45,999 nucleotides of DNA from Dehalococcoidia bacterium. GTDB lineage: Bacteria; Chloroflexota; Dehalococcoidia; Lucifugimonadales; QGNO01. Both the position numbers and the translations under genes were made by a program. Of the stretch, positions 6,601-27,475 are shown in pieces. The stretch covers positions 1-45,999 of the forward strand of contig DAOUKI010000119.1 in the NCBI GenBank assembly GCA_034421495.1. Reading direction: 5' to 3'. The notes below the pieces were generated by a model. The model was not told where the DNA came from. It saw only the letters and a list, made by a program, of their open reading frames with translations, and made no database searches. The first letter of the stretch is position 1. Each line of letters starts with the position of its first letter.

Positions 6601-9600
6601 GGCTGATTGGGATCGCTGTGACCCGCTCCGGGAGTTGGAGCACCGCAGCCCAAATGCACCTCGACATGGAGGCAGGCACATACCAACTCCTCGCCCGGGC
6701 GGCAGATAACGACGACTTTGGCCAGTCTTGGAGTGAGCCGGTCATCGAGATAAAGCTACGACAAGACACCGTGACCACGATCACTGAGTGGCCCGCCGAG
6801 GCCCGGTGGGAAGAACCGTTAACCGTGGCCGGTACAGTCAACACCATGGGTGGCCTTCCGGTAAGCGATATGTGGGTAGAGGTCTATGCTAACAAGACCC
6901 AAGAGCACGGGGGCAGGCTGATTGGGACCGCTGTGACCCGCTCCGGGCGTTGGAGCGTTGAAGTCCGAATGCCCCGTAACATGGAGACGGGCACATACCA
7001 GCTCTTCGCCCGGGCGGTAGAGGACAGCCGCTACAACGAATCTTGGAGTGAGCCGGGCATCGAGATGAAGCTAGGACAAGACACCGTGACCACGATCACC
7101 CAGTCGCCCACCGAGGTCCAGCGGGAGCAGCCGTTGACCGTGGCCGGTACGGTTAACACCGTCAGTGGGAGTCCGGTAAACGATATGAGGGTCGAGGTCT
7201 ATGTGAACGAGACCAAGGAGCACGGGGGCACGCTGATTGGGACCGCTGTGACGCATTCCGGGCAATGGAGCGCTGAAGTCCGAATGCCCGGCGACATGGA
7301 GCTAGGCGCATACCAACTCCTAGCTCGCGCTGTGGAGAACGACCACTTTTACGAGTCTTGGAGCGACCCAGACATCACAGTATACTCGGGGAGCGGCCTA
7401 GAGTTGACCGGTCCGACTACAGTTACGGTGGAAGACGACGCGGTGTTTGTCGGCCGGCTCTCGGATGACAGAGGCATGGGTTTGGAGGACCGCGAGGTAG
7501 TCGTATCTGTCGACGGGACCGTAACGGATTCGATCATGACCAGTCCCCAAGGCACCTTCACCTTCACGTTAGCCTTCTCTGAGTTGGGGCGGCACTGGGT
7601 TGATGTGGAGGTTGCCGAGATGGACTTTGTGCTGGGCAACAGCGTACGCATCGGCGTAGACGTGACGCTCCCGACTAAGATCACCCTTGAAGCCTCGGTC
7701 TCCGTGGAGATCGGCGAGGAGTTCCAAGTAACCGGCACGCTCCTGAGTGTGCGAGGAGAGGCCCTTGCGGATCGTCCTGTCGTTGTTAGTATTGGGGGGA
7801 GCCTCAAGCGACACCCCTTCACGGACGACGACGGAGCATTTGAGGTCCAGGGCAGATTGGGTACCCCAGGAGTCTACATTGTGCGCGCCGAGTTCGATAG
7901 AGACAACTGGGTGCTGGCTTCCACGGCTACTGCACGGTTGTTAGTCCGTGAGAGAGCGCTCCTGACTTTCGACGGGCCGAGCACCATTGATCTGGGAAGC
8001 GGTGGAATGTTCAGTGGCCTCCTAACCACCGCTGCGGGTGTGCCCATCCGCCAGTCGGCGCTGAGCATCGTTGATGCTAGCGACGCTGAGCTTGCCACGG
8101 TGACCACGGATGATGATGGCAGGTTTGAGTACCAGCATTCGTCCTTCCTCCAGACGGGACCGCAATCGATTACGGCCCGGTACCCAGGCGCAGACCTGGT
8201 ATTGCCAAGCTCGGCTAGGATTGCCTTCTCCGTGTTAGCTCAGACCTCTATGAATCTTGAGCTTCCAACTATTGCAAGAGACGGTGATTCGTTTATGTTG
8301 CATGGAAGCCTGAGAGACATCAACGGTGATCCGGTGCCGAATGTTGAGGTGGAGATTAAGGACGTGGGTACACGCACGCTGATGACCGATGCGGACGGCA
8401 AATTCAGTTGGGAGACCGTTGCCACGTTTGACGAAGGGGTAGCGGAGTCGGCTCACGAGTCTCACCTCTCCGTGGAGGTCTTCTTCTCTGGCACTGACCA
8501 CATGGCGCCATCTGCTGCATCTGCTGAAGTTGCTATTGGTGTTCCACGGATCCTTTTGGAGCCGTTGGAGCCTGTGGCGCGCGGAGACGCCGTTACTTTG
8601 CGAGGAACAGTGCTGCTGGGCAACCGCCCCATGACAGGCATAGATCTGGACGTGGCCGAACAAGACAGCGTACAGTCCGGCGCTGCCGGCGAATTCGCCT
8701 ACCGCTACCAGGTAGCCAGCGACCTTCCGCTTGGAACCAGCGATGTAACAGTCACCGCATCCGCTCTCGATGTAAGCGCTAGTGTGCCCCTGGAGGTCAG
8801 ATCCGCCGTAAGCATTGTTGTTACTCCAGTTGGGGAAGTCCGTCCCGGTAAAATGACGCTTCTACAGGCTGCACTACAGGACGACCGGCGGGCGCCTATC
8901 GCTGGCGCCGCTGTGCGTTCCGACGACGGCGTGGAGGTTGTAACAGATGACCTTGGCGTCGCGTTACTAGAACTTACGGTGCCTGACGATGAAGATGCTT
9001 CGGCCTTCTTTATCACTTTGACCTTTGACGGCAACGACCAGCACATGCCTCGCACATATTTTGTCGGTGTCCCACTCTCCCCGTCGGCTGGACTTAACTG
9101 GTTCTTATGGGCTGGCGCCGCAAGCGGTGTTGCCGTACTTGTTGCCGCTGTCTACACAGGAAGGAAGGTGCGCTATGTGCCGCTGCCAGCCCTCCTCCGA
9201 CGGCGTAGGGTGACCGCGTCGCCTGAGGCAGAGTCGGCCTCTGCCCTAGGTGCGGAAGACCTCACCCAAGAAGAGCCAACCGAGCCTGGCGCGCAGGTCA
9301 CTCTGGAAGTGGGTTTCAATAAGGCGGCGGATCTGCCTGACGTCTGGGGCGTGGGTGAGGACGTCACAATCACAGTGACAGTTCTTGACGTCGAAGGACA
9401 GGCCAGAGCCAGCACAGAGATCGTGGTTGCTGTGGCAGACGAAGAGCCGATGGCGCTAGTAAGTGGCGACGATGGGGCTTGCACCTTGCACTGGACCGCC
9501 TCCGAACTGGGTCAACACACGGTGTCGGCAGCGTTCGCAGGTGACGAGGATCACCCGCCTGCCTCTGAATCTCGGAACTTCCGGGTGGTAGATTTCAGGG

Positions 9601-9845
9601 CGGAGATTGTGCGCCTCTACAACAGCTTCCTAGATTGGGCCCGATCCAGCACCGGCAGCGCTCTTGACAAGGCGACGCCCAGGGAAGTGGAGGTCATGCT
9701 GGTCTCCAGTAGCCTGCCGGTGGACCAGAAGTCCCTTGATGAGCTCATCTCCCGATTTGAGGAGGCGGACTACAGTGAGCACTCAATTGCCCGCAGGCAC
9801 TATGAGGCGATGTACCGAGCCTGGCGCGCAGTGGTGGAGGAGTAG
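696..9845 (+). CDS. Giant (3,049 aa) membrane-anchored multi-domain protein: four transglutaminase-like modules, HEAT-repeat insert, tandem Ig-like beta-sandwich domains, C-terminal TM helix and DUF4129-like tail
   Basis: Single uninterrupted 9,150-nt ORF. ATG 696 is preceded by AGGA (685-688). About five N-terminal hydrophobic helices. Four copies of the transglutaminase-core signature DPVDWFLF..G(T)C(G)xFSSAF..ARxxGIPARVVSGW...(D/N)QAHQWAE...G(I/L)GW...(D/E)PT. HEAT-like repeats and beta-sandwich repeats. TM helix LNWFLWAGAASGVAVLVAAVYTG. The C-terminal ...ATPREVEVML...EEADYSEHSIARRHYEAMYRAWRAV resembles DUF4129 tails of TgpA-type transglutaminase membrane proteins. Confidence 0.9.
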   Translation: MRRLTKNLAELMSGNPSRQAGLVLMLTVALAGFFLLIEFLASLLSSGPQDILAVAPGQEATFGLPNSVGLLEAGVLVLSLAVALAVLIASVRWPLARASFRPYLSLILAILFAITLVGVGVYLAFSDMLGQGLDYSEHTVDRSILKPAGLAVLALISLTLIVAGFINRYALALLVVAWVSAAAIFGFLDIRSLHGLHLFERPDRLETPSTYTEIVKDFQRPDALPVEAGTLPVEIEVPHQQDAPTFVISVTAEQSEVPIPEPVFWVSGADHTTYLRTATGDVYEQGRWWQVDPLHLLVEDDGSIPENVVAAIEEARAEPAGSLPPERLDASLLAWSTVEPVESVWDLIAITAFYEGTAFSDGVVPNVNHLVGVNTPAAYYPFSATLRLEGPVHRYQLAMSIPHFDPDDVLGAAPSKDFLYLHLPEDLPARVLELAEQFKGDESPYVRANQINRYLREKFAFSTLEPDEESIERPTGRDPVDWFLFERPVGDSANFSSAFVILARAAGIPARVVSGWAIKRDAGHQVVTADQAHQWAEIALDGIGWVTFDPTRQDASPLRGEDQSLPSLLEELTDSEDPGIREDAAHTLGDLGEAEALPALLDAFRNDGSAAVRLAAGTAIHKIGIEDLIRILLYHEDPPVRAAAAEALGAFRVSEAVDVLLQALSSDVDARVRTASIRALEEISGEAAEIGVLQAALEDEEVSVRETAVRALGNMKAQWTAEEIVTLLREDTNAVIREAAAWTLGELKEAVALQPLIDARDDRVEAVREAAAEALRKWLIPDLAAILQEADDPVQRAAVAKVLGETGEIAAVPPLNWGLNDPVDDVRSAASDALNSMGEITILENGSGLLTAGRGRAFVSGTTTQARPQSPVTPIFAVEGAAHTRYLRTGVGDIYDNGRWLAEEQTGFPYESTSDIVSSTVEAVETHREEITVSGLDSSQLIPAGIVPTSKLLQRVGVSGTFWQPSATFSRHSFSNRYTWYSIVDEYSEARLNAAGKATGLANAPYISLPEWARSGRIYDLAIEITAGHSTPYSQAKAIERYLRTEYAYRAPETSRDGAPPAGQDPVDWFLFDKREGTCGNFSSAFVFLARAIGLPARVVSGWAIGITPSRQTVSSDQAHQWAEVAFEGLGWIDFDPTPGGPRARAALETLSGGNPDAIEDALEALEEAGEEVVRLENGGAILEKGGERYFIPGTTTAPSSGIPETPLFQITGAANTGYLRTSVGDLYQGGGWRQLDPVSVDVVPDTSISGATWTQYRQPDSEFGQLPPQRRSDVSLFGFRTGGHVSRTDNIQMTPIESTGNLPIGRAPISPDLQRTERQGVYYPFSSTFRLHEEVSTFSWTSSIVSYRAQDLEQANVADDPTYLQLLPDMPPRIKELAEQITSGYTSPYAKAKALEAYLKTEYTYRLADSLDDFPPPGRDPVDWFLFDHREGTCGVFSSAFVVMARSVGIPARVVSGWVVSQTAGTQTVRANQAHQWAEVALEGIGWVSFEPTPPGGAPSRAQDGLDSEAVADVLGALDEGDPEAISDALEALVEGGSSGGGSGELEDPLEALEEAGVDVVRLENGGTIISEDENSFSNPGTTTEQAFKPPHIPVYIVSGADGTSYLRMATGDVYEEGGWRQLDPIRIEERPQERVPEALQREYTSGAFSTLPPERRSDPAFFGIRDSDTQESEVLIRVQSANPDRPIPAGVIPVSPDLQDFRHDEVYYPYSGTLRTPHRKSDYWYLTKVQHFTLGQLRRADAASDPTYLQLPPDLPDRVRQLAEHVTQGHTTPYEKARALAVYLRTTYPYRFADGPEDRPPPGHDPVDWFLFDHQEGTCGVFSSAFAVMARAAGIPARVVSGWPVIPTPDLQTVYTDQAHQWAEIALEGIGWVTVEPTPSDGAPLRARNFAGGNVPNPPVISGGGPNPGTTVLQPVQTYTAITQSPAEVRGGQAFMVSGTVSTAAGHAVDDMRVEIFANKTQERGGRLIGIAVTRSGSWSTAAQMHLDMEAGTYQLLARAADNDDFGQSWSEPVIEIKLRQDTVTTITEWPAEARWEEPLTVAGTVNTMGGLPVSDMWVEVYANKTQEHGGRLIGTAVTRSGRWSVEVRMPRNMETGTYQLFARAVEDSRYNESWSEPGIEMKLGQDTVTTITQSPTEVQREQPLTVAGTVNTVSGSPVNDMRVEVYVNETKEHGGTLIGTAVTHSGQWSAEVRMPGDMELGAYQLLARAVENDHFYESWSDPDITVYSGSGLELTGPTTVTVEDDAVFVGRLSDDRGMGLEDREVVVSVDGTVTDSIMTSPQGTFTFTLAFSELGRHWVDVEVAEMDFVLGNSVRIGVDVTLPTKITLEASVSVEIGEEFQVTGTLLSVRGEALADRPVVVSIGGSLKRHPFTDDDGAFEVQGRLGTPGVYIVRAEFDRDNWVLASTATARLLVRERALLTFDGPSTIDLGSGGMFSGLLTTAAGVPIRQSALSIVDASDAELATVTTDDDGRFEYQHSSFLQTGPQSITARYPGADLVLPSSARIAFSVLAQTSMNLELPTIARDGDSFMLHGSLRDINGDPVPNVEVEIKDVGTRTLMTDADGKFSWETVATFDEGVAESAHESHLSVEVFFSGTDHMAPSAASAEVAIGVPRILLEPLEPVARGDAVTLRGTVLLGNRPMTGIDLDVAEQDSVQSGAAGEFAYRYQVASDLPLGTSDVTVTASALDVSASVPLEVRSAVSIVVTPVGEVRPGKMTLLQAALQDDRRAPIAGAAVRSDDGVEVVTDDLGVALLELTVPDDEDASAFFITLTFDGNDQHMPRTYFVGVPLSPSAGLNWFLWAGAASGVAVLVAAVYTGRKVRYVPLPALLRRRRVTASPEAESASALGAEDLTQEEPTEPGAQVTLEVGFNKAADLPDVWGVGEDVTITVTVLDVEGQARASTEIVVAVADEEPMALVSGDDGACTLHWTASELGQHTVSAAFAGDEDHPPASESRNFRVVDFRAEIVRLYNSFLDWARSSTGSALDKATPREVEVMLVSSSLPVDQKSLDELISRFEEADYSEHSIARRHYEAMYRAWRAVVEE
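750..1262 (+). other. N-terminal cluster of about five predicted transmembrane helices of the giant protein
   Basis: Hydrophobic runs AGLVLMLTVALAGFFLLIEFLASLL, VGLLEAGVLVLSLAVALAVLIASV, YLSLILAILFAITLVGVGVYLAF, GLAVLALISLTLIVAGFI and YALALLVVAWVSAAAIFGFL. Judged by eye, with no topology program. Confidence 0.6.
2127..2348 (+). other. Transglutaminase-like core 1 (nucleophile position is Ser, not Cys)
   Basis: DPVDWFLFERPVGDSANFSSAFVILARAAGIPARVVSGWAI...DQAHQWAEIALDGIGWVTFDPT. It aligns residue-for-residue with cores 2-4, but GTCG is replaced by GDSA. The His and Asp positions are retained. Confidence 0.75.
2421..3212 (+). other. HEAT (PBS-lyase-type) repeat solenoid, about 8-9 repeats, inserted between transglutaminase modules 1 and 2
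   Basis: A roughly 30-aa periodic pattern D/E-x-x-VR-x-x-A-x-x-ALG-x-(L/I)G. Examples: EDPGIREDAAHTLGDLGEAEALPALLDAF, DGSAAVRLAAGTAIHKIG, EDPPVRAAAAEALGAFRVSEAVDVLLQAL, DVDARVRTASIRALEEI, EEVSVRETAVRALGNM, TNAVIREAAAWTLGELK, DDPVQRAAVAKVLGETGEIAAVPPL, PVDDVRSAASDALNSMG. Confidence 0.7.
3888..4109 (+). other. Transglutaminase-like core 2 (canonical Cys-His-Asp positions all present)
   Basis: DPVDWFLFDKREGTCGNFSSAFVFLARAIGLPARVVSGWAI...DQAHQWAEVAFEGLGWIDFDPT. Confidence 0.8.
4956..5177 (+). other. Transglutaminase-like core 3 (Cys-His-Glu)
   Basis: DPVDWFLFDHREGTCGVFSSAFVVMARSVGIPARVVSGWVV...NQAHQWAEVALEGIGWVSFEPT. The Asp position of the DPT motif is Glu. Confidence 0.8.
6114..6335 (+). other. 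Transglutaminase-like core 4 (Cys-His-Glu)
   Basis: DPVDWFLFDHQEGTCGVFSSAFAVMARAAGIPARVVSGWPV...DQAHQWAEIALEGIGWVTVEPT. The Asp position is Glu. Confidence 0.8.
6450..7391 (+). repeat. Three in-frame tandem repeats (312 + 315 + 315 nt; 104/105 aa each) encoding Ig-like/beta-sandwich domains
   Basis: Units start at 6450, 6762 and 7077. The 23-nt string caagacaccgtgaccacgatcac is identical at 6762 and 7077. gctgattgggaccgctgtgac is shared by units 2 and 3, and ggcaggctgattggga(t/c)cgctgtgacccgctccggg by units 1 and 2. Protein units follow the pattern Q(D/T)T(V/Y)T(T/A)IT..P.E....(Q/E)..(M/T)V.GTV.T..G..V.DM.VE(I/V)(F/Y).N(K/E)T(Q/K)E(R/H)GG.LIG.AVT.SG.WS......P..ME.G.YQL.ARA......ESWS.P. Confidence 0.85.
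7392..9065 (+). other. Array of about six further, more diverged Ig-like/beta-sandwich domains (about 90 aa each)
   Basis: A recurring pattern: beta-strand-rich about 90-aa unit with G(T/S)L...G.P(V/L)....V.V......(T/F)TD..G.F. Examples: FQVTGTLLSVRGEALADRPVVVSIGG..FTDDDGAFEV; MFSGLLTTAAGVPIRQSALSIVD..VTTDDDGRFEY; FMLHGSLRDINGDPVPNVEVEIKD..LMTDADGKFSW. Domain boundaries are approximate. Confidence 0.55.
9093..9161 (+). other. Single C-proximal transmembrane helix of the giant protein
   Basis: LNWFLWAGAASGVAVLVAAVYTG followed by the basic RKVRYVPLPALLRRRR, which gives positive-inside polarity. This places the roughly 2,600-aa TGase/HEAT/Ig region and the C-terminal about 225 aa on opposite sides of the membrane. 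Confidence 0.6.
9591..9842 (+). other. DUF4129-like C-terminal domain
   Basis: DFRAEIVRLYNSFLDWAR...ATPREVEVMLVSSSLPVDQKSLDELISRFEEADYSEHSIARRHYEAMYRAWRAV. The T-P-x-E ... A-x-Y-S ... pattern is what I remember for DUF4129 tails. An HMM search is needed. Confidence 0.5.
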
Positions 9846-9848
9846 AAG

Positions 9849-12284
9849 GTGGTAAGCGTTATCCACACCTACCGACTGCCGCTGACGGCCCTTCTCTTGG
9901 GAACGGGTATTGTTGCCACATTCCTGCTGTTCTGGAGATCGACCGGCTTACTCTCCACCTGGATAGGCTTTGACATCGGCTTCCTGTGGACACCACTTGC
10001 CATCTGGACGTGCCTGCTGCTGCTCAGCCGATTCGAAGCGCCTGCGGGCCGTAGGGAGCCGGATGGATTGGCTTGGCGACGGCTATTCTCAGCGTTGCCT
10101 TTCGTGCGGAGGCTCCTGTCTGATCTGGCGTGGTTTGCGCTCGTGATAGGACTGCTGAGCGCCGCCCCAACCATGGTCTCCGCTATCTCCAACCGACCTG
10201 GCGGTCCGGAACTTGCATCATTTGAAAAGTATGTCCAAGTGTTCAGCTCTATGGCTCTCTGGGGCAGCGTTGTGCTGGCTCCCGTTGCGGTTATGCGTGC
10301 TATAGCCGAGGTACGTCCAGGCTTTAGGGTACTGCTGATCTCCCCATGGTGGCGCCTAGCGTTCATTGGAGTTAGCTATATCCTCTTGGCAAACGGGGGC
10401 GTGCTCAACGTCGCCTTTGGCTTCCAGGGTTTCATCCTCTGGCTGGCACTTACCGTAGCGGTCGCCCTTGCCTACGTCGCTCTGGTCATTCGCAACAGAC
10501 TCAACCAGCCACTCAAACCACGGATGTTGTTCCTGCTCCGTGTGCAGCTCCTGTTCATAGAGGCGACGTGGATCCCCGTAGCGTTAGTCGCGGTGATAGT
10601 GCTGCCTTCGATGGTGGAGTCCGTGTTGGTCGGCCATTTTGCATTGGACCCTGATACCGCCGCCGCTTACGCGGAGAGCCTTGGAGCGCTGACATCGACA
10701 CAAGCGTTCGCGGTGATGCTGCCCTTCGCGCTGGTGCGCACGGTCGGGGTCTTCTGGCCCGCTGTGGGCCGAATTCTGGGGTTCCCCGTCGGGCGGCTAG
10801 CTCTGGTGGGCGTCGTTCATGTCATATTCTCAGAGGGCGGCGTTCTCTGGGTTGCCTTTGAGGTATCCTTCTCGCAGCTCATGGCCTCCTTAACGCTGGC
10901 CCTGGCTCTCTCTTATGCGGCATCAATCATACGCAACATTGCGGATATCCGGTTTTCAGGCCGCTTTGGGACGGCGGCAACTACGGCCCTCTCAATTATG
11001 AGTTCCGCAACAGCCGCCCTCGCCGCGGGTCTAGCTGTGTGGAGTATAGTCAATCACTTGCCGGTCGCCAATGCGGCGCTCCTTGACCATGGAGCTACAC
11101 GGTATCTTGGCCAACGGTTGCTACCATATTTCAGCCTGTTATTCGACTCACGGTTCACCATCACGGCCCTTGGCATGGCACTGACTTTTGCCCTGAGCCA
11201 ACCGTGGCCATGGAGAGATGAGGCCGTAACACGTCGCCGGCTCCTGTTCAACACCTTGTGCTATGGTGTAGGAGGTTACTTCGCTTGGGTGTTGGGTATC
11301 ATCCTCTCACCTCTGGGGCACGGCTTTGTACTAGCGGGCGTGGCCGTAGCATTGGGCATGTTCGCGCTTGGACTCGCGCAAGCCTTGCAATGTGCCACCT
11401 TTCCCTACAACACTGCGCTAACCCAGATAGTGAGTCGTCTCACGGCGTCGAGAGTGCGCGTATTTGTTCTGGGAGCGACCCTCGCGTTCTACGGTCTGCT
11501 GCTGCGCCCCGCTCTTTATGAGGTTTTGTGGTTCGCCGCCTTATACGAATACATCGCGCTGTTAGCCCTGCTGGCGCTGGTTCTGATCTTCGTGACGGAT
11601 CTGCTGAGGCGGACTGCAACTGCCCAGACGGTTGAAGTAGCTGAGTGGAGTAACTGGTCTCACCACCAGCAGACGCTGGAGAGCAAGGATGACCCCCGGT
11701 CCGCTATGACATCGGCCATGCGGCAAGATTTCCTAGACCGCCTTGACTGGAAGCCGCTGTGGACGTACCTCATGGGGCTACTCTGTCGAAATGGTGCATC
11801 CCTGGAGTGGATGTACGCCGTATGTCAACCACTGCGCGCAAGTGCAGTCTCCTCTTCCAAGCTGCGATTTCTCAGATGGAGAAATCGTGGGCGCATGGGC
11901 AGAATTGCCACGTTAGAAGATGCACTACGGCGTACAGACAGCGCGTTAGCTGCAACAGAGGCGCCAGTGCAACCGATTACTAAGGAGGAGTTGCTCCGGG
12001 CCGCGGCGCCGTTTGTTGATACGGGTGTCGAAGTCGAGCGGTTCGTTGTCGCGCTAATTGCGGCCCACTACCGGCAGGGCGACGATCTTCAGCGCGCCAT
12101 TGACCGATGGTTTCCGCTTCTCAACTCGCCTGACCACTCGGTTGGACGTATTGCTCTGCCTTGGTCCCGTTCACGCGCCAGAGTTCGAGGCCGAGAAGAG
12201 CGTGATAGTCTTGTCAACGGCGCCGTAGAGATGCTATTTGACAACGCGACTTCAGCTACTAATGACGCTAATGAAGCTTCTTGA
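9849..12284 (+). CDS. Polytopic integral membrane protein (811 aa), no recognisable family; membrane part followed by an Arg-rich soluble C-terminal region of about 220 aa
   Basis: GTG 9849 lies 3 nt after the giant gene's TAG (9843-9845) and 6 nt after GGAGGAG (9836-9842). Many hydrophobic segments span the first about 590 aa. There is an internal duplication with a 147-aa period: RLAFIGVSYILLANGGVLNVAFGFQGFILWLALTVAVALAYVALVIRN (from nt 10353) versus RLALVGVVHVIFSEGGVLWVAFEVSFSQLMASLTLALALSYAASIIRN (from nt 10794). Confidence 0.8.
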   Translation: MVSVIHTYRLPLTALLLGTGIVATFLLFWRSTGLLSTWIGFDIGFLWTPLAIWTCLLLLSRFEAPAGRREPDGLAWRRLFSALPFVRRLLSDLAWFALVIGLLSAAPTMVSAISNRPGGPELASFEKYVQVFSSMALWGSVVLAPVAVMRAIAEVRPGFRVLLISPWWRLAFIGVSYILLANGGVLNVAFGFQGFILWLALTVAVALAYVALVIRNRLNQPLKPRMLFLLRVQLLFIEATWIPVALVAVIVLPSMVESVLVGHFALDPDTAAAYAESLGALTSTQAFAVMLPFALVRTVGVFWPAVGRILGFPVGRLALVGVVHVIFSEGGVLWVAFEVSFSQLMASLTLALALSYAASIIRNIADIRFSGRFGTAATTALSIMSSATAALAAGLAVWSIVNHLPVANAALLDHGATRYLGQRLLPYFSLLFDSRFTITALGMALTFALSQPWPWRDEAVTRRRLLFNTLCYGVGGYFAWVLGIILSPLGHGFVLAGVAVALGMFALGLAQALQCATFPYNTALTQIVSRLTASRVRVFVLGATLAFYGLLLRPALYEVLWFAALYEYIALLALLALVLIFVTDLLRRTATAQTVEVAEWSNWSHHQQTLESKDDPRSAMTSAMRQDFLDRLDWKPLWTYLMGLLCRNGASLEWMYAVCQPLRASAVSSSKLRFLRWRNRGRMGRIATLEDALRRTDSALAATEAPVQPITKEELLRAAAPFVDTGVEVERFVVALIAAHYRQGDDLQRAIDRWFPLLNSPDHSVGRIALPWSRSRARVRGREERDSLVNGAVEMLFDNATSATNDANEAS

Positions 12285-15419: not shown

Positions 15420-16976
15420 ATGAACAATGATCAGAATGCCGCAAAGCAGATCATCAACCGATTCGGAGGCCAGTCCGCGTTGGCCGGCCTGCTGGGTAAG
15501 CGCCAGAGCACCGTGCAGCACTGGTCCAGGACTGGGAGGATACCCTCCCAGTGGCACGAGAAACTGCTGGGACTCGCCCGTCGGCAGGGAATCGCCCTGG
15601 AACCCAGGGACTTCGTTTCGGCAGGCACGCCCGGCGTAGAGCCGCCGGACGGCAGGCTTGGCGTCCTCCTCGTGGGTCTTGGCGCTGTGTCGTCGACACT
15701 CATCGCCGGCGTCGAGCACATACGGCGCGGCTCCGGTCAGCCCGTAGGCTCCATCAGCCAGATGGCGACCATACGGCTGGGCAAGCGGTCCGACAGAAGG
15801 TCACCCTTCATAAGAGACTTCGTTCCCCTTGCAGGGCTGGACCAACTCGTATTCGGAGCATGGGACCCGATACCGGACAACGCATATGAGTCCGCGGTCA
15901 AGTGCGGCGTCCTGCACAGGTACGAAGAGATAGAGCCGGTCGCAGACTTTCTCAGGACGGTTGAACCGATGGAGGCGGTGTTCTACAACGACTATGTCAA
16001 GCGCATCCAGGGCATCAACGTCAAGTCGTTCGGCAACAAGCTGGAGGCTGTCGATGCCATTCGCGAGGACATTCGCCGGTTCAGGGCGGAGAACGAGTGC
16101 GACAGGCTCGTGATGGTATGGTGCGCTTCTACCGAAATATTCATTATGGAGAGCGAGATACACCAGGACATCGAGAGCTTCGTCGGCGGGCTCCGTGAGA
16201 GCGACGCGAGAATCGCGCCCTCGATGCTCTACGCCTACGCCGCCCTTCTGGAGGGCGTCCCATTCATCAACGGCTCACCGAACCTGTCGGTGGATGTGCC
16301 CGCTCTCGAGAAGCTGGCCAGGGACGAAGGCGTTCCGGTCTGCGGGAAGGACTTCAAGACCGGCCAGACACTCGTCAAGACGGTAATCGGGCCGATGCTC
16401 AAGGCGAGAATGCTCGGGGTGGACGGTTGGTTCTCCACCAACATCCTGGGGAACCGTGACGGGGAGGTACTCGACGAGCCCGAGAACTTCAGAACGAAGG
16501 AGGATTCGAAACTCGGCGTGTTGGAGTACATCCTGCAGCCGGAGATGTACCCTGAGCTCTACTCCGACGCCTATCACAAGGTGCGCATCAACTACTATCC
16601 GCCCCGCGGCGACGCCAAGGAGGGCTGGGACAACATCGACCTGTTCGGATGGCTGCGCCATCCGATGCAACTCAAGATCAACTTCCTCTGCTCGGACTCC
16701 ATCCTCGCCGCGCCGCTGGTGCTGGACCTCATACTCTTCATGGACTTGGCCCAGCGCGCCGGCCTGGCGGGCATACAGGAGTGGCTCTCCTTCTACTTCA
16801 AGAGTCCCCAGCACGCGCCCGCTGTCTATCCTGAGCACGACCTGTTTATCCAGCAGGCCAAGCTCAAGAACACCCTGCGCTGGCTGATGGGCGAGGACCA
16901 GATCACCCATCTGGGCATGGAGTACTACCGCGAGCCGTTCTCCCCGGTTGGCGCAGACCCTTACCTGCCAGCCTGA
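15420..16976 (+). CDS. ino1: myo-Inositol-1-phosphate synthase with an N-terminal Cro/YdaS-like helix-turn-helix extension of about 75-80 aa
   Basis: MIPS body: Rossmann start LGVLLVGLGAVSSTLIAGVEHIRRG, INGSPN, STNILGNRDG, KINFLCSDSILAAPLVLDLILF. N-terminal KQIINRFGGQSALAGLLGKRQSTVQHWSRTGRIPSQWHEKLLGLARRQGI is HTH-like. I prefer ATG 15420 (AGGA 8 nt upstream) over the track's ATG 15369. Both are in the same frame. Confidence 0.85.
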   Translation: MNNDQNAAKQIINRFGGQSALAGLLGKRQSTVQHWSRTGRIPSQWHEKLLGLARRQGIALEPRDFVSAGTPGVEPPDGRLGVLLVGLGAVSSTLIAGVEHIRRGSGQPVGSISQMATIRLGKRSDRRSPFIRDFVPLAGLDQLVFGAWDPIPDNAYESAVKCGVLHRYEEIEPVADFLRTVEPMEAVFYNDYVKRIQGINVKSFGNKLEAVDAIREDIRRFRAENECDRLVMVWCASTEIFIMESEIHQDIESFVGGLRESDARIAPSMLYAYAALLEGVPFINGSPNLSVDVPALEKLARDEGVPVCGKDFKTGQTLVKTVIGPMLKARMLGVDGWFSTNILGNRDGEVLDEPENFRTKEDSKLGVLEYILQPEMYPELYSDAYHKVRINYYPPRGDAKEGWDNIDLFGWLRHPMQLKINFLCSDSILAAPLVLDLILFMDLAQRAGLAGIQEWLSFYFKSPQHAPAVYPEHDLFIQQAKLKNTLRWLMGEDQITHLGMEYYREPFSPVGADPYLPA

Positions 16977-17920: not shown

Positions 17921-18031
17921 CCCATGATACTACGAAAGCGGAACCGGTAGAGGTGGATAATAGGGTCGCATGCAATATAATTAATGTAACAACTGTTGAG
18001 GTTGGCTCTGAACGTCCCAGGAAGGAAAACT

Positions 18032-19546
18032 TTGAGTAGACTCTTGAGTCATTTCGGATTGCTGTTGGCCGTGGTTATGGCGGCTGTTGCTGTTGCCTGT
18101 TCCGGTACGGAAGAACCTACCGTGCCGGCAGAAGGGACGCCGACGGCTTCACCTACACAGACCCCAACGGCTGCGCCGACTCCCGCCACGGGCTACGACT
18201 CCACCGAGAACATGTTCCGGCTCTTCTCAGGCCGTGACCACAATCCCTTCGACACGCACGAGGCCATCGCGCTTGCTATCTTCCACAAAGACAAGTCGAT
18301 GGTCCCGGTGATGATAGAGACGTTCCGATTCTTCTTTGGGGACGATGACATACTAGAGGAGCTCAATGGTGGCCTCTCGGCGATAACGGGCCAGGAGTTA
18401 AGGGATAACTACCGCGCCTGGGATGAGTGGATGGAGTGGTTGGGCAATAACGCCGACGAATACAACCCGCCCGACGGTTACGTGCAGTGGAAGAGCGAGA
18501 TCATGAGCCTGATTGACCCCAGGTTCGCCGAGTTTCTGGAACCTGCGGCGCAAGGCTCGCGAATAAACGTGTTCGAAATCGCGTGGGGAGGAGTCCGGCC
18601 GGACGGGATCCCGGACCTTCAAAACGCCCCGGTCGTTTCGGCGGGGGAGCAGGACTATTTGCTGCCGGGCGACCGGGTCTTCGGCGTGTCCATCAACGGA
18701 GAGCACAGGGCGTACCCGCTCCGCATTGTGAACGCCCACGAAATGGCCAATGATGTGTTGGGCGGTGAACCCATCGCCCTGGCTTACTGAACGCTCTGCG
18801 GCAGCGGAATAGTGTATTCCGCCAGGATCAACGGAGAGCCAACCACCTTTGGCACGTCGGGGATGCTATATCGCAGCAACAAGGTCATGTACGACCGGCT
18901 GACCAACTCGCTGTGGAACCATCTCACCATGGAGCCGGTCATAGGTCCGCTGTGGGACTCCGGGATAAAGCTGGACTTCTTCCCGGTTATGCTCACGACG
19001 TGGCAGGAGTGGCTGGAGCTTCATCCCGATACTACGGTGCTGGCCCAGGAGACGGGCCTCTATCCCGCAGAATTCTACGTCCCGGAGGAGAACCCCCAGG
19101 CCATCTACTACAGGTATTTCAACTCGCCTGAGACTATGTTCCCGGTGCCGCAACGCGATGACCGGCTTGAAACAAAGGACATAGTGCTAGGGGTTCAGCT
19201 GAACGAGAGCTACAAGGCCTACTTCTCCGACGCGCTGCGGAGGAACCGCATAGTCAACGATGTGGTGGGAGGAGAGGAGATAGTGGTGCTGGGATCGGGC
19301 GGAAGCGAGGGCGCGAGGGCGTACTACCGCGGAGGCAGGTCGTTCAAACTGGCGTCGGACGGCGGCGACTCCGGCATACCGTCTGTGATAGTGGACGCCG
19401 CGGGCGGGACATGGGAGGTGACCGAGGAGTTTCTGGTCAACACGGCAGACAAATCGGAGAAGCTGGCGCGGATACCCACCCACATGTCGTTCTGGTTCGC
19501 ATGGTTCCAGTTCCATCCGGATACCGAGTTGTACGCGGAGCCCTAA
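18032..19546 (+). CDS. DUF3179-family lipoprotein, candidate selenoprotein (in-frame TGA 18788-18790 read as Sec in a U-T-L-C motif)
   Basis: Track ORFs 17996..18790 and 18812..19546 share one frame. Only the TGA and 7 sense codons (ACG CTC TGC GGC AGC GGA ATA) separate them. The joined sequence ...GGEPIALAY-U-TLCGSGIVYSARINGEPTTFGTSGMLYRSNKVMYDRLTNSLWNHL... matches the DUF3179 core as I remember it (YCPLCG...FG.SG.LY.SN.VMYD..T.SLW), with the TGA at the first Cys. The likely start is TTG 18032 after GGAAGGA, giving the signal peptide MSRLLSHFGLLLAVVMAAVAVAC with a lipobox-like VAVAC. The track's TTG 17996 is the alternative start. Confidence 0.7.
18804..18822 (+). promoter_or_regulatory. Candidate bacterial SECIS hairpin (GCGGAAUA-GUG-UAUUCCGC)
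   Basis: Perfect 8-bp inverted repeat with a GUG apex. It starts 13 nt after the UGA, and the apex is about 22-24 nt after it, inside the distance range described for bacterial SECIS elements. CUG (18796-18798) and CAG (18823-18825) could extend the stem across a bulge. Not folded computationally. Confidence 0.45.
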
Positions 19547-26491: not shown

Positions 26492-27475
26492 ATGACGGAG
26501 CAATCGACAGACGTCAAAGCGATTCTTGGGCAGATACTGAGGACACCCGCAAATACGGCGGCTTTTTCCTTCATCCGCTACGTGGGCACGCACATGAGTG
26601 AGGACGACCAGGCGGAGTTTCTCAACGGGCTGCTGAAAAAGTCCGTCGAGAGCAGGGAAGCGGGAGACGCCTCGGCGCTGTGGGACTACCTGGAGGTATG
26701 GGAAGAACGGGGCAGGGCGCTGGCCGGAGCGCGGGCTCGCGGCGTCGAGGTAGAAGGAATACCGTGGTCGCCGGTTGCGACGCCGTTGAACGAGGCCAAG
26801 TTCGCCTTGATCACCACGGGCGGCGTTTACGTGGAAGGCCAGGAACCGTACGAGACGGACGGACCGGAAGGCCTGGGTGATTGGTCGTGGCGGGCGATTC
26901 CAAAGGATGTTCCACGCGATGATCTGCGCCTGGCCCACCTGCACTACGACCTCTCCGGGCCTCGTGAGGACATCAACTGCGTCTTCCCGCTGGACAGGAT
27001 GGTGGAGTTGGAGCAGGACGGCGTCATAGGAAGTCTTGCCAGCACCAACTACTCGTTTATGGGGTACATACAACGTCCCGACCTGTTGAGCGCTGAGACC
27101 GCTCCCCAAGTAGCGAAACGGCTGAAAGCCGACGGCGTTCAGGCCGTAGTGCTCACCTCAACCTGACCGGTGTGCAACCGGTCCGGCGGACTGATAGCAA
27201 GGGCAATAGAAGCGGAGGGCATCCCCACGGTGCTCGTCATGATGTACAAGGAGATGGCGGAGAAGGTCCATCCCCCACGCGTTGCCCACGTCCGCTTCCC
27301 GTTTGGGCGGCCCATGGGTGAGCCGAACAACGCGGACCAGCATCGCGTGATACTGGAAGACGCGCTGAGCGTCCTGGAAACGGCGGGAGAACCGGGGACG
27401 GTTGTCAGCCTGCCATATCGCTGGAGACGTGAGCACTACAAGCGGATACGGGCGGAGCGGGCCGTCAACAAGTAG
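26492..27475 (+). CDS. GrdB/PrdB-family (glycine/sarcosine/betaine reductase selenoprotein B-like) protein, candidate selenoprotein (in-frame TGA 27164-27166 in a U-P-V-C motif)
   Basis: Track ORFs 26492..27166 and 27170..27475 share one frame, with only the TGA plus CCG between them. The joined sequence ...ADGVQAVVLTST-U-PVCNRSGGLIARAIEAEGIPTVLV... resembles the GrdB active-site region as I remember it (..LTsT-U-GTC-tRCGA..I.E..GIP.V). Upstream, FALITTGGVY..., HLHYD..., DINCVFPLDRMVELEQDGVIGSL also look GrdB-like. Confidence 0.7.
27179..27193 (+). promoter_or_regulatory. Candidate SECIS-like hairpin (CGGUCC-GGC-GGACUG)
   Basis: A 6-bp stem including one G-U pair, with a GGC apex about 18-20 nt after the UGA. 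A competing hairpin, GACCGG-UGUGCAA-CCGGUC (27165-27183), includes the GA of the UGA itself. Both were read by eye. Weaker than the DUF3179 case. Confidence 0.3.

What the first reader, a model, noticed from the sequence alone, without database searches (positions are those of the whole stretch)
18032..19546. DUF3179 lipoprotein with an in-frame UGA replacing the first Cys of the family's CxxC motif: candidate new selenoprotein
Seen in sequence:
- The two track ORFs are in the same frame. Only one TGA (18788-18790) interrupts them.
- The joined sequence reads AY-U-TLCGSG, followed by FGTSGMLYRSNKVMYDRLTNSLW.
- A perfect hairpin, GCGGAAUA-GUG-UAUUCCGC, starts 13 nt downstream.
- TGA is otherwise a genuine stop in this window, for example at the MIPS gene (16974-16976) and the 811-aa gene (12282-12284).

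Established: bacterial Sec insertion needs an mRNA hairpin shortly 3' of the UGA. Sec typically replaces a redox Cys, often in UxxC or CxxU motifs. As I remember it, DUF3179 proteins carry a conserved YCPLCG at this place, and their function is unknown.

Inference: this is a Sec-containing, probably exported (lipobox VAVAC) thiol/selenol redox protein. That would also argue that DUF3179 is a redox family. I cannot say from memory whether DUF3179 is already on published selenoprotein lists.
Basis: partly seen in the sequence, partly recalled or inferred. Interest (0 to 1): 0.75.

Follow-up and report, generated by a model that had tools for sequence, protein, structure and literature searches.

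The report
DUF3179 selenoprotein gene; family already known
The stop codon inside this gene is almost certainly read as the rare amino acid selenocysteine, but this protein family has been on published selenoprotein lists since 2007, so the gene is a well-supported ordinary member and not a discovery.

Summary
Window 18032-19546 (+) is one 504-codon frame with a single internal TGA (18788-18790), inside a DUF3179 domain, followed by a perfect 8-bp hairpin.

The selenocysteine reading is strongly supported:
- All 83 related loci (80 are one-per-species genome records, nearly all Dehalococcoidia MAGs) have TGA at this column. Identity to the window protein is 52-96%.
- The 250 codons after the TGA are intact and better conserved than those before it.
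- The seven codons between the TGA and the next possible start change only synonymously.
- More distant full-length homologues and tandem paralogues have Cys there (CTLCG/CVLCG).
- Synonymous sites are frozen exactly over the hairpin.
- The hairpin meets the published bacterial SECIS criteria.
- TGA ends 5 of 22 other genes in the window.
- A second gene in the window (PrdB/GrdB family, TGA at 27164) shows the same pattern.

The "new selenoprotein" claim is not supported. DUF3179 (PF11376, motif UxxC/T) is listed as a prokaryotic selenoprotein family in the 2022 and 2026 reviews, citing Zhang & Gladyshev 2007. Dehalococcoidia MAGs are reported as selenoprotein-rich.

Not tested: selA, selB, selC and selD in the same genome. 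The biochemical function remains unknown.

The parts
18020..18027 (+). Shine-Dalgarno-like GGAAGGAA, 4 nt upstream of the TTG start
   Evidence: Read directly from the sequence. Orthologue products P0115 and P0116 start at the equivalent MSRLL.
18032..19546 (+). Complete DUF3179 selenoprotein gene: 504 codons, TTG start, Sec codon 253, TAA stop
   Evidence: One frame with one internal TGA. Pfam PF11376 E = 6e-78. Orthologues match residues 1-504 at 52-96% identity.
18032..18100 (+). Signal peptide with lipobox (AVA-C23). The mature protein is predicted to be lipid-anchored outside the cytoplasmic membrane.
   Evidence: Sequence pattern only. Cys23 is at least 90% conserved in alignments A1 and A2. 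No dedicated predictor was available.
18101..18193 (+). Pro/Thr/Ala-rich linker, probably disordered
   Evidence: The equivalent residues 1-87 of the modelled homologue P0001 have pLDDT below 50. Composition read.
18194..18586 (+). N-terminal all-helical domain with no Pfam family. Conserved residues include W130, W133, W136, P147 and K154.
   Evidence: Helices 92-210 in the AlphaFold model of P0001, pLDDT above 88. Conserved columns. No Pfam hit.
18602..19525 (+). DUF3179 domain (residues 191-498), a beta-rich internal duplication
   Evidence: Pfam match. Strand-strand-helix-strand-strand units appear twice in the model. Repeat 1 against repeat 2: 36% identity over 59 residues, E = 2e-7. The gap in repeat 2 covers ALAYC, i.e. 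the Sec position but not Cys256.
18737..18739 (+). His236 codon. This invariant His of NxHExxND is inferred to lie opposite Sec253 across a beta-hairpin.
   Evidence: Invariant in alignment A2. The position opposite Sec253 is inferred from the strand register of the model (E280-285 and E288-295 in P0001). No coordinates were inspected.
18788..18790 (+). In-frame UGA read as selenocysteine (residue 253), first position of UxxC
   Evidence: TGA in 84 of 84 orthologous sequences. TGC in 8 tandem paralogues and in 3 Cys-form homologue loci. Aligns with Cys of LAYCTLCG in full-length homologues.
18797..18799 (+). Cys256 codon, the resolving or partner Cys of the UxxC motif
   Evidence: Cys in 84 of 84 orthologues, with both TGC and TGT used.
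18804..18822 (+). SECIS upper stem-loop. In the window it is 8 bp (GCGGAAUA/UAUUCCGC) with apical loop GUG at 18812-18814. The clade core is 6 bp (CGGAAU/AUUCCG).
   Evidence: Fold energies and shuffles. Six pairs are invariant in 71-72 of 72 distinct sequences. Synonymous entropy is 0.14 against 0.93 bits.
18793..18839 (+). Whole SECIS-like element, including a lower stem (18793-18800 pairing with 18832-18839)
   Evidence: MFE -19.1 kcal/mol, z = -2.3. In the lower helix 88% of cells are paired across 72 sequences, with changes mostly on one side of a pair.

Best explanation
The gene at 18032-19546 encodes one 504-residue protein, and UGA 18788-18790 is decoded as selenocysteine.

How decoding works (established bacterial mechanism): SelB carrying Sec-tRNA(Sec) is recruited by a stem-loop just 3' of the UGA. 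Here that stem-loop has its core at 18804-18822 with apical loop GUG 21 nt after the UGA, and the extended element spans 18793-18839.

The product:
- A signal peptide and lipobox (Cys23) are followed by a disordered Pro/Thr linker.
- Next comes a helical domain and then a duplicated beta-rich DUF3179 domain.
- It is therefore predicted to be tethered to the outer face of the cytoplasmic membrane.
- Sec253 and Cys256 sit in a tight turn (U-T-L-C-G) between two strands of repeat 1. They are inferred to lie next to the invariant His236.

Most likely function: this U/C pair is the functional centre. I favour a selenol/thiol redox pair that cycles through a selenenylsulfide while acting on an extracytoplasmic substrate (about 0.45). 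A metal-binding site built from Sec, Cys and His is the main alternative (about 0.3).

Shown: the recoded UGA, the RNA constraint, the domain architecture and the Cys/Sec pairing.
Inferred: SelB dependence, export, and the chemistry of the site.
For: 1. UGA conservation. TGA is at the identical column in the window and in 83 related loci. Eighty of these are one genome record per species at 52-96% identity.
2. Intact downstream reading frame. The 247-332 codons after the TGA are open in all 83 loci. Median identity to the window is 0.79 after the TGA and 0.73 before it.
3. Translation through the gap. Codons +1 to +4 (T, L, C, G) keep their amino acid in 84 of 84 sequences while using 4, 5, 2 and 4 different codons. 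The stretch between the TGA and the next start codon is therefore translated.
4. Cys/Sec pairing. Full-length homologues at about 50% identity have Cys at this column. So do tandem upstream paralogues in eight of the same genomes.
5. RNA constraint. Codons +5 to +10 have mean synonymous entropy 0.14 bits against 0.93 elsewhere. Only 4 of 100,000 random six-codon sets are as low. TAT is used in 84 of 84 cases against 26% elsewhere, and GGA in 82 of 83 against 21% elsewhere. Cys forms use GGC or GGT, TAC, and AGC or TCA at these positions.
6. SECIS criteria. The published bacterial criteria are a 3-9 nt loop, a 4-16 bp stem, a G in the first two loop positions, 16-37 nt spacing and MFE of -7.5 kcal/mol or lower (PMC13188914). 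The window meets all of them.
7. Standard genetic code. TGA terminates 5 of 22 genes in the window, and 58 of 83 orthologues end on TGA themselves.
8. A second recoded gene. The PrdB/GrdB-family gene at 26492-27475 has a UGA at 27164 aligned with Cys in P0205. The TGA is kept in relatives at 58% and 51% identity.
9. Literature. DUF3179 is a listed selenoprotein family with motif UxxC/T. Two Dehalococcoidia MAGs are among the ten bacteria richest in selenoprotein genes.
Against: - No selA, selB, selD or tRNA-Sec was found in the window or in 755 kb of related loci. Only a DgaE-like SelA relative and an AIR-synthase-like protein appeared, both below family cut-offs. The genomes could not be searched whole.
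- The hairpin has no covariation support. Its pairs never vary, and no measure exceeds the shuffles.
- The clade-consensus 6-bp hairpin alone is weak at -5.1 kcal/mol, z = -0.9. Cys homologues form comparably weak hairpins at the same place.
- One orthologue (L001) carries a stem-breaking substitution, GGA to GAA, so the core hairpin no longer forms. Its near-identical twin L002 has GGA.
- On function, the model is not a thioredoxin fold and matches nothing in the PDB.
- Some paralogues lack both Cys (YDVQTG).
- There is no conserved gene neighbourhood.
Confidence: 0.88

Rival explanations
1. The TGA is a sequencing or assembly error, or the gene is a pseudogene inactivated by a nonsense mutation.
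For: A single in-frame stop splitting a domain is what a nonsense mutation looks like. Public gene callers split the gene in two.
Against: - The TGA is at the same column in 84 independent assemblies spanning 52-96% protein identity.
- The downstream half is open in all of them and better conserved than the upstream half.
- An identical C-terminal product occurs on an independent metagenome scaffold.
Confidence: 0.01
2. This is a genuinely split gene. Translation stops at the UGA and restarts at GTG 18812, with the conserved GGA acting as a ribosome-binding site. Two polypeptides result.
For: - GTG 18812 lies 21 nt after the TGA, and GGA precedes it.
- The frozen synonymous sites (ACC GGA ATC GTG) could be read as RBS plus start codon.
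Against: - The untranslated gap would contain T-L-C-G-[S/T]-G-I. These residues are conserved as amino acids through synonymous changes in 84 of 84 sequences.
- The constraint continues 3' of the GTG into TAT TCC, which forms the 3' arm of the hairpin.
- The second polypeptide would lack a signal peptide while the first is exported.
- Cys homologues are single chains.
Confidence: 0.02
3. The UGA is recoded, but not as Sec. One route would be Cys insertion by a UCA-anticodon tRNA-Cys working with SelB, as described for some Deltaproteobacteria (my own recollection of Vargas-Rodriguez et al. 2018, not checked here). Another would be near-cognate read-through as Trp, Cys or Arg.
For: - Every comparative signal here shows recoding, not the identity of the inserted residue. 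These signals are the conserved UGA, the SECIS-like hairpin and the Cys in homologues.
- No Sec machinery was seen in the sequence held.
Against: - If Cys were wanted, a TGC or TGT codon would do, as in the tandem paralogues of the same genomes. Retention of UGA plus a hairpin in 84 of 84 species argues for a residue that cannot be encoded otherwise.
- The family is listed as Sec-containing.
- Dehalococcoidia MAGs of the same series are reported to have the Sec pathway and 46-49 selenoprotein genes.
- General reassignment of UGA is excluded by TGA stops in 5 of 22 window genes.
Confidence: 0.04
4. Rival for the function only. The Sec/Cys turn (U-x-x-C-G, a rubredoxin-like knuckle) together with invariant His236 binds a metal ion such as Cu, Zn, Fe or Hg. 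It would not cycle as a selenenylsulfide redox pair.
For: - The CxxCG motif lies in a tight turn between two strands.
- An invariant His sits across the hairpin (the register is inferred).
- The fold is not thioredoxin-like.
- Published selenoprotein lists include UxxC metal-handling proteins such as a cation-transporting ATPase and a MerT-like transporter.
- In one Cys-form locus the gene follows an alternative complex III and cytochrome c operon.
Against: - Only two thiol or selenol ligands are conserved.
- No partner genes for metal handling are conserved nearby.
- No 3D coordinates were available to check the geometry.
- Most UxxC selenoproteins described are redox proteins (PMC9312934 abstract).
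Confidence: 0.3

Closest known systems
DUF3179 domain-containing selenoprotein family (pfam11376, motif UxxC/T). First reported by Zhang & Gladyshev 2007 in the Olavius algarvensis symbiont metagenome and listed in PMC9312934 and PMC13188914.
   Same: - Same Pfam domain.
- Sec at the first position of a UxxC motif.
- Cys-containing homologues exist.
- A stem-loop follows the UGA.
   Different: - The lineage here is Dehalococcoidia (Chloroflexota), whereas the original report came from a symbiont metagenome dominated by a deltaproteobacterium.
- This clade carries a lipobox, a Pro/Thr linker and an extra N-terminal helical domain.
- I could not compare sequences with the published examples (MBW1804167.1, MDJ0986319.1). 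I also could not find out whether this clade is already in BSepDB.
Bacterial SECIS element (consensus model of bSECISearch; prototype E. coli fdhF)
   Same: - A stem-loop inside the coding sequence just 3' of the UGA.
- The loop is 3 nt (window) or 5 nt (clade), with G followed by U in the first positions.
- The loop lies 20-21 nt after the UGA.
- The stem is 6-8 bp.
   Different: - There is no sequence similarity to any curated RNA family, and no Rfam match.
- The clade core is short and energetically weak on its own.
- Support comes from frozen synonymous sites, not from compensatory changes.
Cys-containing DUF3179 homologues: full-length proteins P0001-P0114, and tandem paralogues in the same Dehalococcoidia genomes
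   Same: - Same architecture: lipobox, linker, helical domain and DUF3179, at 45-56% identity over 92-99% of the length.
- The same invariant residues around the motif.
   Different: - TGC replaces TGA.
- The GGAAU/AUUCC hairpin is absent, and ordinary codon choices are used at those positions.
Exported thiol:disulfide oxidoreductase selenoproteins (DsbA-, DsbE- and thioredoxin-like proteins with UxxC or CxxU)
   Same: A two-residue-spaced Sec/Cys pair in a protein with an export signal. This is the working model for how the site acts.
   Different: - No thioredoxin-fold Pfam hit.
- The model is a duplicated beta-rich domain with no PDB relative.
- This is a functional analogy only, not membership.

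Membership tests
Pfam DUF3179 (PF11376) | Profile match above the curated gathering score | tested here: met
   262.6 bits against a cut-off of 27, E = 6.3e-78. Residues 191-498 match profile positions 2-292 of 292, spanning the UGA.
Bacterial selenoprotein gene | In-frame UGA aligned with Cys (or Sec) in homologues | tested here: met
   The column is C in LAYCTLCG of the full-length homologues and TGC in tandem paralogues.
Bacterial selenoprotein gene | The UGA and the reading frame downstream are conserved among orthologues | tested here: met
   - TGA in 84 of 84 sequences.
- The downstream ORF is open in 83 of 83 loci, with median identity 0.79.
- Only synonymous change occurs in codons +1 to +4.
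Bacterial selenoprotein gene | SECIS stem-loop 3' of the UGA that fits the consensus: loop 3-9 nt, stem 4-16 bp, G in loop positions 1-2, 16-37 nt spacing, MFE of -7.5 kcal/mol or lower | tested here: met
   - Criteria taken from PMC13188914.
- Window: loop GUG, 8 bp stem, 21 nt spacing, -9.9 kcal/mol for the hairpin alone and -19.1 with the lower stem.
- Clade consensus: loop CGUGU, 6 bp, 20 nt spacing. It reaches the energy criterion only with the lower stem.
Bacterial selenoprotein gene | The RNA element is under selection, shown by covariation or synonymous constraint | tested here: met
   - Synonymous entropy is 0.14 against 0.93 bits, and only 4 of 100,000 random six-codon sets are as low.
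- Covariation itself is absent.
Bacterial selenoprotein gene | Sec machinery (selA, selB, selD, tRNA-Sec) in the same genome | not testable with these tools
   - None found in the 46-kb window or in 755 kb of related loci.
- Whole genomes could not be read.
- Indirect support: a second UGA-containing gene of a known selenoprotein family lies in the window.
- Indirect support: literature on Dehalococcoidia MAGs.
Bacterial selenoprotein gene | Selenium demonstrated in the protein | not testable with these tools
   Needs 75Se labelling or mass spectrometry.
Bacterial lipoprotein | Signal peptide ending in a lipobox with an invariant Cys at +1 | tested here: met
   - MSRLLSHFGLLLAVVMAAVAVA-C23 fits the lipobox pattern.
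- Cys23 is at least 90% conserved.
- This is pattern inspection only; no LipoP or SignalP was run.
Thioredoxin-fold thiol:disulfide oxidoreductase | Thioredoxin fold carrying the CxxC or UxxC motif at the N-terminus of a helix | tested here: not met
   - No thioredoxin-like Pfam hit.
- In the model of a Cys homologue the motif is a turn between two beta strands.
- No PDB match with Foldseek E below 0.35.
Glycine/betaine/sarcosine/D-proline reductase selenoprotein B family (second gene, 26492-27475) | Profile match above the curated cut-off, with the UGA at the family's Sec/Cys column | tested here: met
   - TIGR01918 scores 72.8 bits against a cut-off of 65.45, spanning the UGA.
- The equivalog models (PrdB, GrdB) fall below their cut-offs.
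- The column is Cys in P0205 and Ser in P0195.
- TGA is kept in L090 and L091.

The most novel reading that the evidence does not exclude
The U-x-x-C turn next to the invariant His, on a duplicated beta-rich fold with no solved relative, is the active centre of an uncharacterised extracytoplasmic enzyme or metal-handling family. In an entire clade of marine or host-associated Dehalococcoidia (84 of 84 sequences) the protein would be strictly selenium-dependent, with Cys-containing and Cys-less paralogues kept alongside for other conditions.
Probability: 0.3. Interest if true: 0.45.

Novelty: new member of a known kind. Interest (0 to 1): 0.2.

Why it matters
- Annotation. The gene is mis-called as two ORFs in public gene sets. 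Correct annotation needs the Sec reading.
- Scale. A whole clade of Dehalococcoidia keeps Sec at this site without a single reversion to Cys. This fits recent reports that some Dehalococcoidia are unusually rich in selenoproteins.
- What it does not do. It does not open a new question. The family was already a listed selenoprotein family, and its biochemical function stays unknown.
- Leads for anyone characterising DUF3179. The Sec/Cys/His site lies on repeat 1 of a duplicated domain. There is no PDB relative.

Tried and rejected
- **Rfam.** No family matched the window at gathering scores, or 18700-18900 at E up to 10.
- **Covariation.** On 72 distinct hairpin sequences the structure is invariant, so covariation statistics are uninformative. 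I relied on synonymous-site entropy instead.
- **Sec machinery.**
  - tRNA scans of the window and of 60 loci (L001-L060) found no tRNA-Sec.
  - E. coli SelA, SelB and SelD searched by tblastn against all held DNA hit only BipA, a DgaE-like SelA relative and an AIR-synthase-like protein, the last two below NCBIfam cut-offs and BipA identified from its Pfam domains.
- **Source contig.** Look-ups of two edge genes of the window found nothing on record. The C-terminal ORF found a 39-kb scaffold with the same gene order.
- **Gene neighbourhood.** Across 85 loci the commonest neighbour (an SDR) occurs in only 18, so there is no conserved operon.
- **Structure.**
  - The Cys homologue P0001 was modelled instead, with mean pLDDT 83.7.
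  - Foldseek against the PDB and a profile search of PDB sequences gave nothing significant.
  - NCBIfam has no model for the family.
- **Supplements.** None is held for the two 2026 papers.
- **SepRS paper.** I checked PMC5424206 for UGA-to-Cys recoding in Chloroflexi. It does not deal with UGA.
Full report
**Observation**

Window 18032-19546 (+) translates as one frame of 504 codons. It has a single internal stop, TGA at 18788-18790, and a terminal TAA. The mechanical ORF list shows two ORFs in the same frame, 17996-18790 and 18812-19546. The local context is PIALAY-TGA-TLCGSGIVYSARINGEPTTFGTSG.

The hairpin GCGGAAUA-GUG-UAUUCCGC lies at 18804-18822, 13 nt after the TGA. Alone it folds at -9.9 kcal/mol (z = -5.1; 0 of 200 shuffles fold as well). 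With a lower stem (18793-18800 pairing with 18832-18839) the 53-nt element folds at -19.1 kcal/mol (z = -2.3).

With Sec written as Cys, the joined protein matches Pfam DUF3179 over residues 191-498 at E = 6e-78, so the TGA lies inside the domain. No other gene has an internal TGA. The organism therefore uses the standard code.

**Is the UGA real and conserved?**

A scan of one genome per species returned 80 loci. Most titles name Dehalococcoidia MAGs, three name Chloroflexota, and one is labelled Actinomycetes. They encode relatives at 52-96% identity over residues 1-504. Three more loci came from looking up truncated protein hits.

In all 83 loci, as in the window, the codon at this column is TGA.
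- The reading frame after the TGA is open for 247-332 codons in all 83 loci.
- Median identity to the window is 0.79 after the TGA and 0.73 before it.
- The four codons after the TGA keep Thr, Leu, Cys and Gly in 84 of 84 sequences, while using 4, 5, 2 and 4 different codons.

That pattern of purely synonymous change shows that ribosomes translate through the stretch between the TGA and the next possible start (GTG 18812). This excludes a sequencing error, a pseudogene and a two-cistron split gene. In 58 of the 83 orthologues the gene's own terminator is also TGA. The same codon is thus read in two ways within one gene.

**Cys/Sec pairing**

Full-length homologues of about 540 residues, at 45-56% identity, have the same lipobox-linker-helical-DUF3179 architecture. 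They read LAY-C-TLCG at the column.
- In eight of the same Dehalococcoidia genomes a tandem upstream paralogue reads AQ-C-VLCG, with TGC.
- One locus also has a downstream paralogue without either Cys, YDVQTG.

**The RNA element**

Across 72 distinct sequences the conserved core is a 6-bp stem, CGGAAU/AUUCCG, with loop CGUGU, 20 nt after the UGA. The window's 8-bp stem with a GUG loop is a variant found in a minority of sequences.

The pairs never vary, so covariation tests say nothing. No measure exceeds the shuffled controls, and RNAalifold finds no compensatory pair. The consensus hairpin alone is weak at -5.1 kcal/mol (z = -0.9). Cys homologues form similarly weak hairpins at the same place.

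The strong evidence is synonymous-site conservation.
- Codons +5 to +10 (Thr/Ser-Gly-Ile-Val-Tyr-Ser) have mean codon entropy 0.14 bits, against 0.93 for the other 70 degenerate codons nearby.
- This is the lowest six-codon window in the region. Only 4 of 100,000 random six-codon sets are as low.
- The frozen codons are the ones needed for pairing, and they are otherwise minority codons. TAT is used in 84 of 84 cases (26% elsewhere) and GGA in 82 of 83 (21% elsewhere).
- Cys forms use GGC or GGT, TAC, and AGC or TCA at these positions.

The published bacterial SECIS criteria are a 3-9 nt loop, a 4-16 bp stem, G in the first two loop positions, 16-37 nt spacing and MFE of -7.5 kcal/mol or lower (PMC13188914). 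The window element meets all of them. The clade consensus meets the energy criterion only when the lower stem is included. One orthologue (L001) has a stem-breaking GGA-to-GAA change and the core hairpin no longer forms. Its near-identical twin L002 has GGA, so this may be an assembly error. Rfam has no matching family.

**Sec machinery**

No selA, selB, selD or tRNA-Sec lies in the window. None lies in the 755 kb of related DNA held either.
- E. coli SelA, SelB and SelD, fetched, hit only a BipA GTPase (identified from its Pfam domains), a DgaE-family SelA relative and an AIR-synthase-like protein.
- The last two are below the curated cut-offs.
- tRNA scans of the window and of 60 loci found no tRNA-Sec.

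The tools give no access to whole genomes, so this defining feature stays untested.

Two indirect lines support Sec decoding in this organism. The first is a second interrupted gene in the window, 26492-27475 (+), with TGA at 27164-27166 in the context LTST-TGA-PVCNRSGG.
- The joined product matches the reductase selenoprotein B family, TIGR01918, at 72.8 bits against a cut-off of 65.45, spanning the TGA.
- All but a handful of its 96 homologues are about 218-226 residues and cover only the part before this column. The four sequences inspected end exactly there.
- The full-length homologues have Cys (P0205) or Ser (P0195) at the column.
- Relatives at 58% and 51% identity, one from a Tara Oceans scaffold, keep the TGA, the downstream frame and a small GGUCC-NNN-GGACU hairpin about 13 nt after the UGA.
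- Three of these homologues come from contigs whose lengths equal those of DUF3179 loci L005, L024 and L050. The same genomes therefore carry both genes.

The second line is the literature. The BSepDB paper lists two Dehalococcoidia MAGs among the ten bacteria with the most selenoprotein genes, 49 and 46. One belongs to the same MAG series as many of the loci here (PMC13326102).

**What is already known**

DUF3179 (pfam11376) is listed, with motif UxxC/T, in the tables of prokaryotic selenoprotein families in PMC9312934 (2022) and PMC13188914 (2026). Both cite Zhang & Gladyshev 2007, the Olavius symbiont metagenome study (PMC1976440). What this window adds is one more member, from a large Dehalococcoidia clade in which Sec is universal.

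**Protein anatomy and likely function**

The N-terminus, MSRLLSHFGLLLAVVMAAVAVA-C23, fits a lipoprotein signal, and Cys23 is at least 90% conserved. An AlphaFold model of the Cys homologue P0001 (mean pLDDT 83.7, above 90 over most of the folded part) shows three regions:
- a disordered Pro/Thr linker;
- a helical domain with no Pfam family;
- a beta-rich DUF3179 domain built from two strand-strand-helix-strand-strand units.

The two units are detectably homologous, at 36% identity over 59 residues and E = 2e-7. The alignment gap in repeat 2 covers ALAYC, i.e. the Sec position but not Cys256.

In the model the motif is a tight turn between two strands. From the strand register, the invariant His of NxHExxND lies opposite the Sec position. 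This placement is inferred, since no coordinates were inspected.

Other searches gave no functional lead.
- Foldseek finds nothing in the PDB with E below 0.35.
- A profile search of PDB sequences finds nothing significant.
- NCBIfam has no model for the family.
- There is no conserved gene neighbourhood.
- In one Cys-form locus the gene follows an alternative complex III and cytochrome c operon.

I commit to a membrane-tethered, extracytoplasmic protein whose Sec253/Cys256 pair is the functional centre. A selenenylsulfide redox cycle is the most likely chemistry (about 0.45). A Sec/Cys/His metal site is the main alternative (about 0.3). The protein does not have a thioredoxin fold, so any likeness to Dsb-type selenoproteins is functional only.

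**Verdict**

- Observation: confirmed.
- Sec reading: supported at about 0.9 by comparative evidence. The machinery and the selenium itself are untested.
- Novelty claim: not supported.
- The gene is a new member of a known selenoprotein family and is of low interest beyond correct annotation.

Noticed in passing
window 26492-27475 (+), TGA at 27164-27166: A second in-frame-UGA gene, from the PrdB/GrdB (reductase selenoprotein B) family, with context LTST-U-PVCNRSGG.
- TIGR01918 scores above its cut-off and spans the UGA.
- All but a handful of its 96 homologues are about 218-226 residues and cover only the part before this column; the four inspected end exactly there.
- Cys (P0205) or Ser (P0195) occupies the column in full-length relatives.
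- TGA, the frame and a GGUCC-NNN-GGACU hairpin about 13 nt downstream are kept in relatives at 58% and 51% identity.

   Followed up: partly
L022, L023, L027, L030, L035, L038, L059, L060 (about 1.5-2.1 kb upstream of the Sec gene); L075 5488: Several of the same genomes carry DUF3179 paralogues next to the Sec form. One is a Cys form (AQ-C-VLCGSG, TGC) directly upstream. In L075 a Cys-less form (YDVQTG) lies downstream. This suggests duplication followed by divergence of the active-site residue.
   Followed up: partly
window 18602-19525; model of P0001 residues 225-540: The DUF3179 domain is an internal duplication of a strand-strand-helix-strand-strand unit: 36% identity over 59 residues, E = 2e-7. 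The Sec position and the invariant His are features of repeat 1 only. The fold has no PDB relative by Foldseek.
   Followed up: partly
window 18194-18586: A conserved helical domain of about 130 residues (W130, W133, W136, P147, K154) lies between the lipoprotein linker and DUF3179. It has no Pfam family. The only structural resemblances are weak matches to designed helical-repeat proteins.
   Followed up: no
L001 10853-10905 compared with L002: L001 and L002 are near-identical loci from different assemblies. In this 57-nt stretch they differ at one base, GAA against GGA, which breaks the hairpin stem and changes Gly to Glu in L001. This may be a long-read assembly error.
   Followed up: no
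L084 216-7793: In one genome with a Cys-form DUF3179, the gene lies directly downstream of an alternative complex III-like operon. That operon holds a multihaem cytochrome, a molybdopterin subunit, a 4Fe-4S subunit, two NrfD-type subunits, ActD and cytochrome c. The molybdopterin subunit is called as two ORFs of 575 and 148 aa, separated by 40 nt.
   Followed up: no
window 696-9845 (+): A 3049-residue ORF has four transglutaminase-core domains, HEAT repeats and bacterial Ig-like domains. It is followed by an 811-residue ORF with no Pfam match, then MoxR AAA+ and DUF58 genes.
   Followed up: no
L077 1765-2895, also L075; eight loci in all: A DgaE-family (SelA-related) PLP enzyme lies directly upstream of the Sec-DUF3179 gene in eight loci. 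It is not SelA: TIGR00474 scores 39.6 bits against a cut-off of 267.9.
   Followed up: yes
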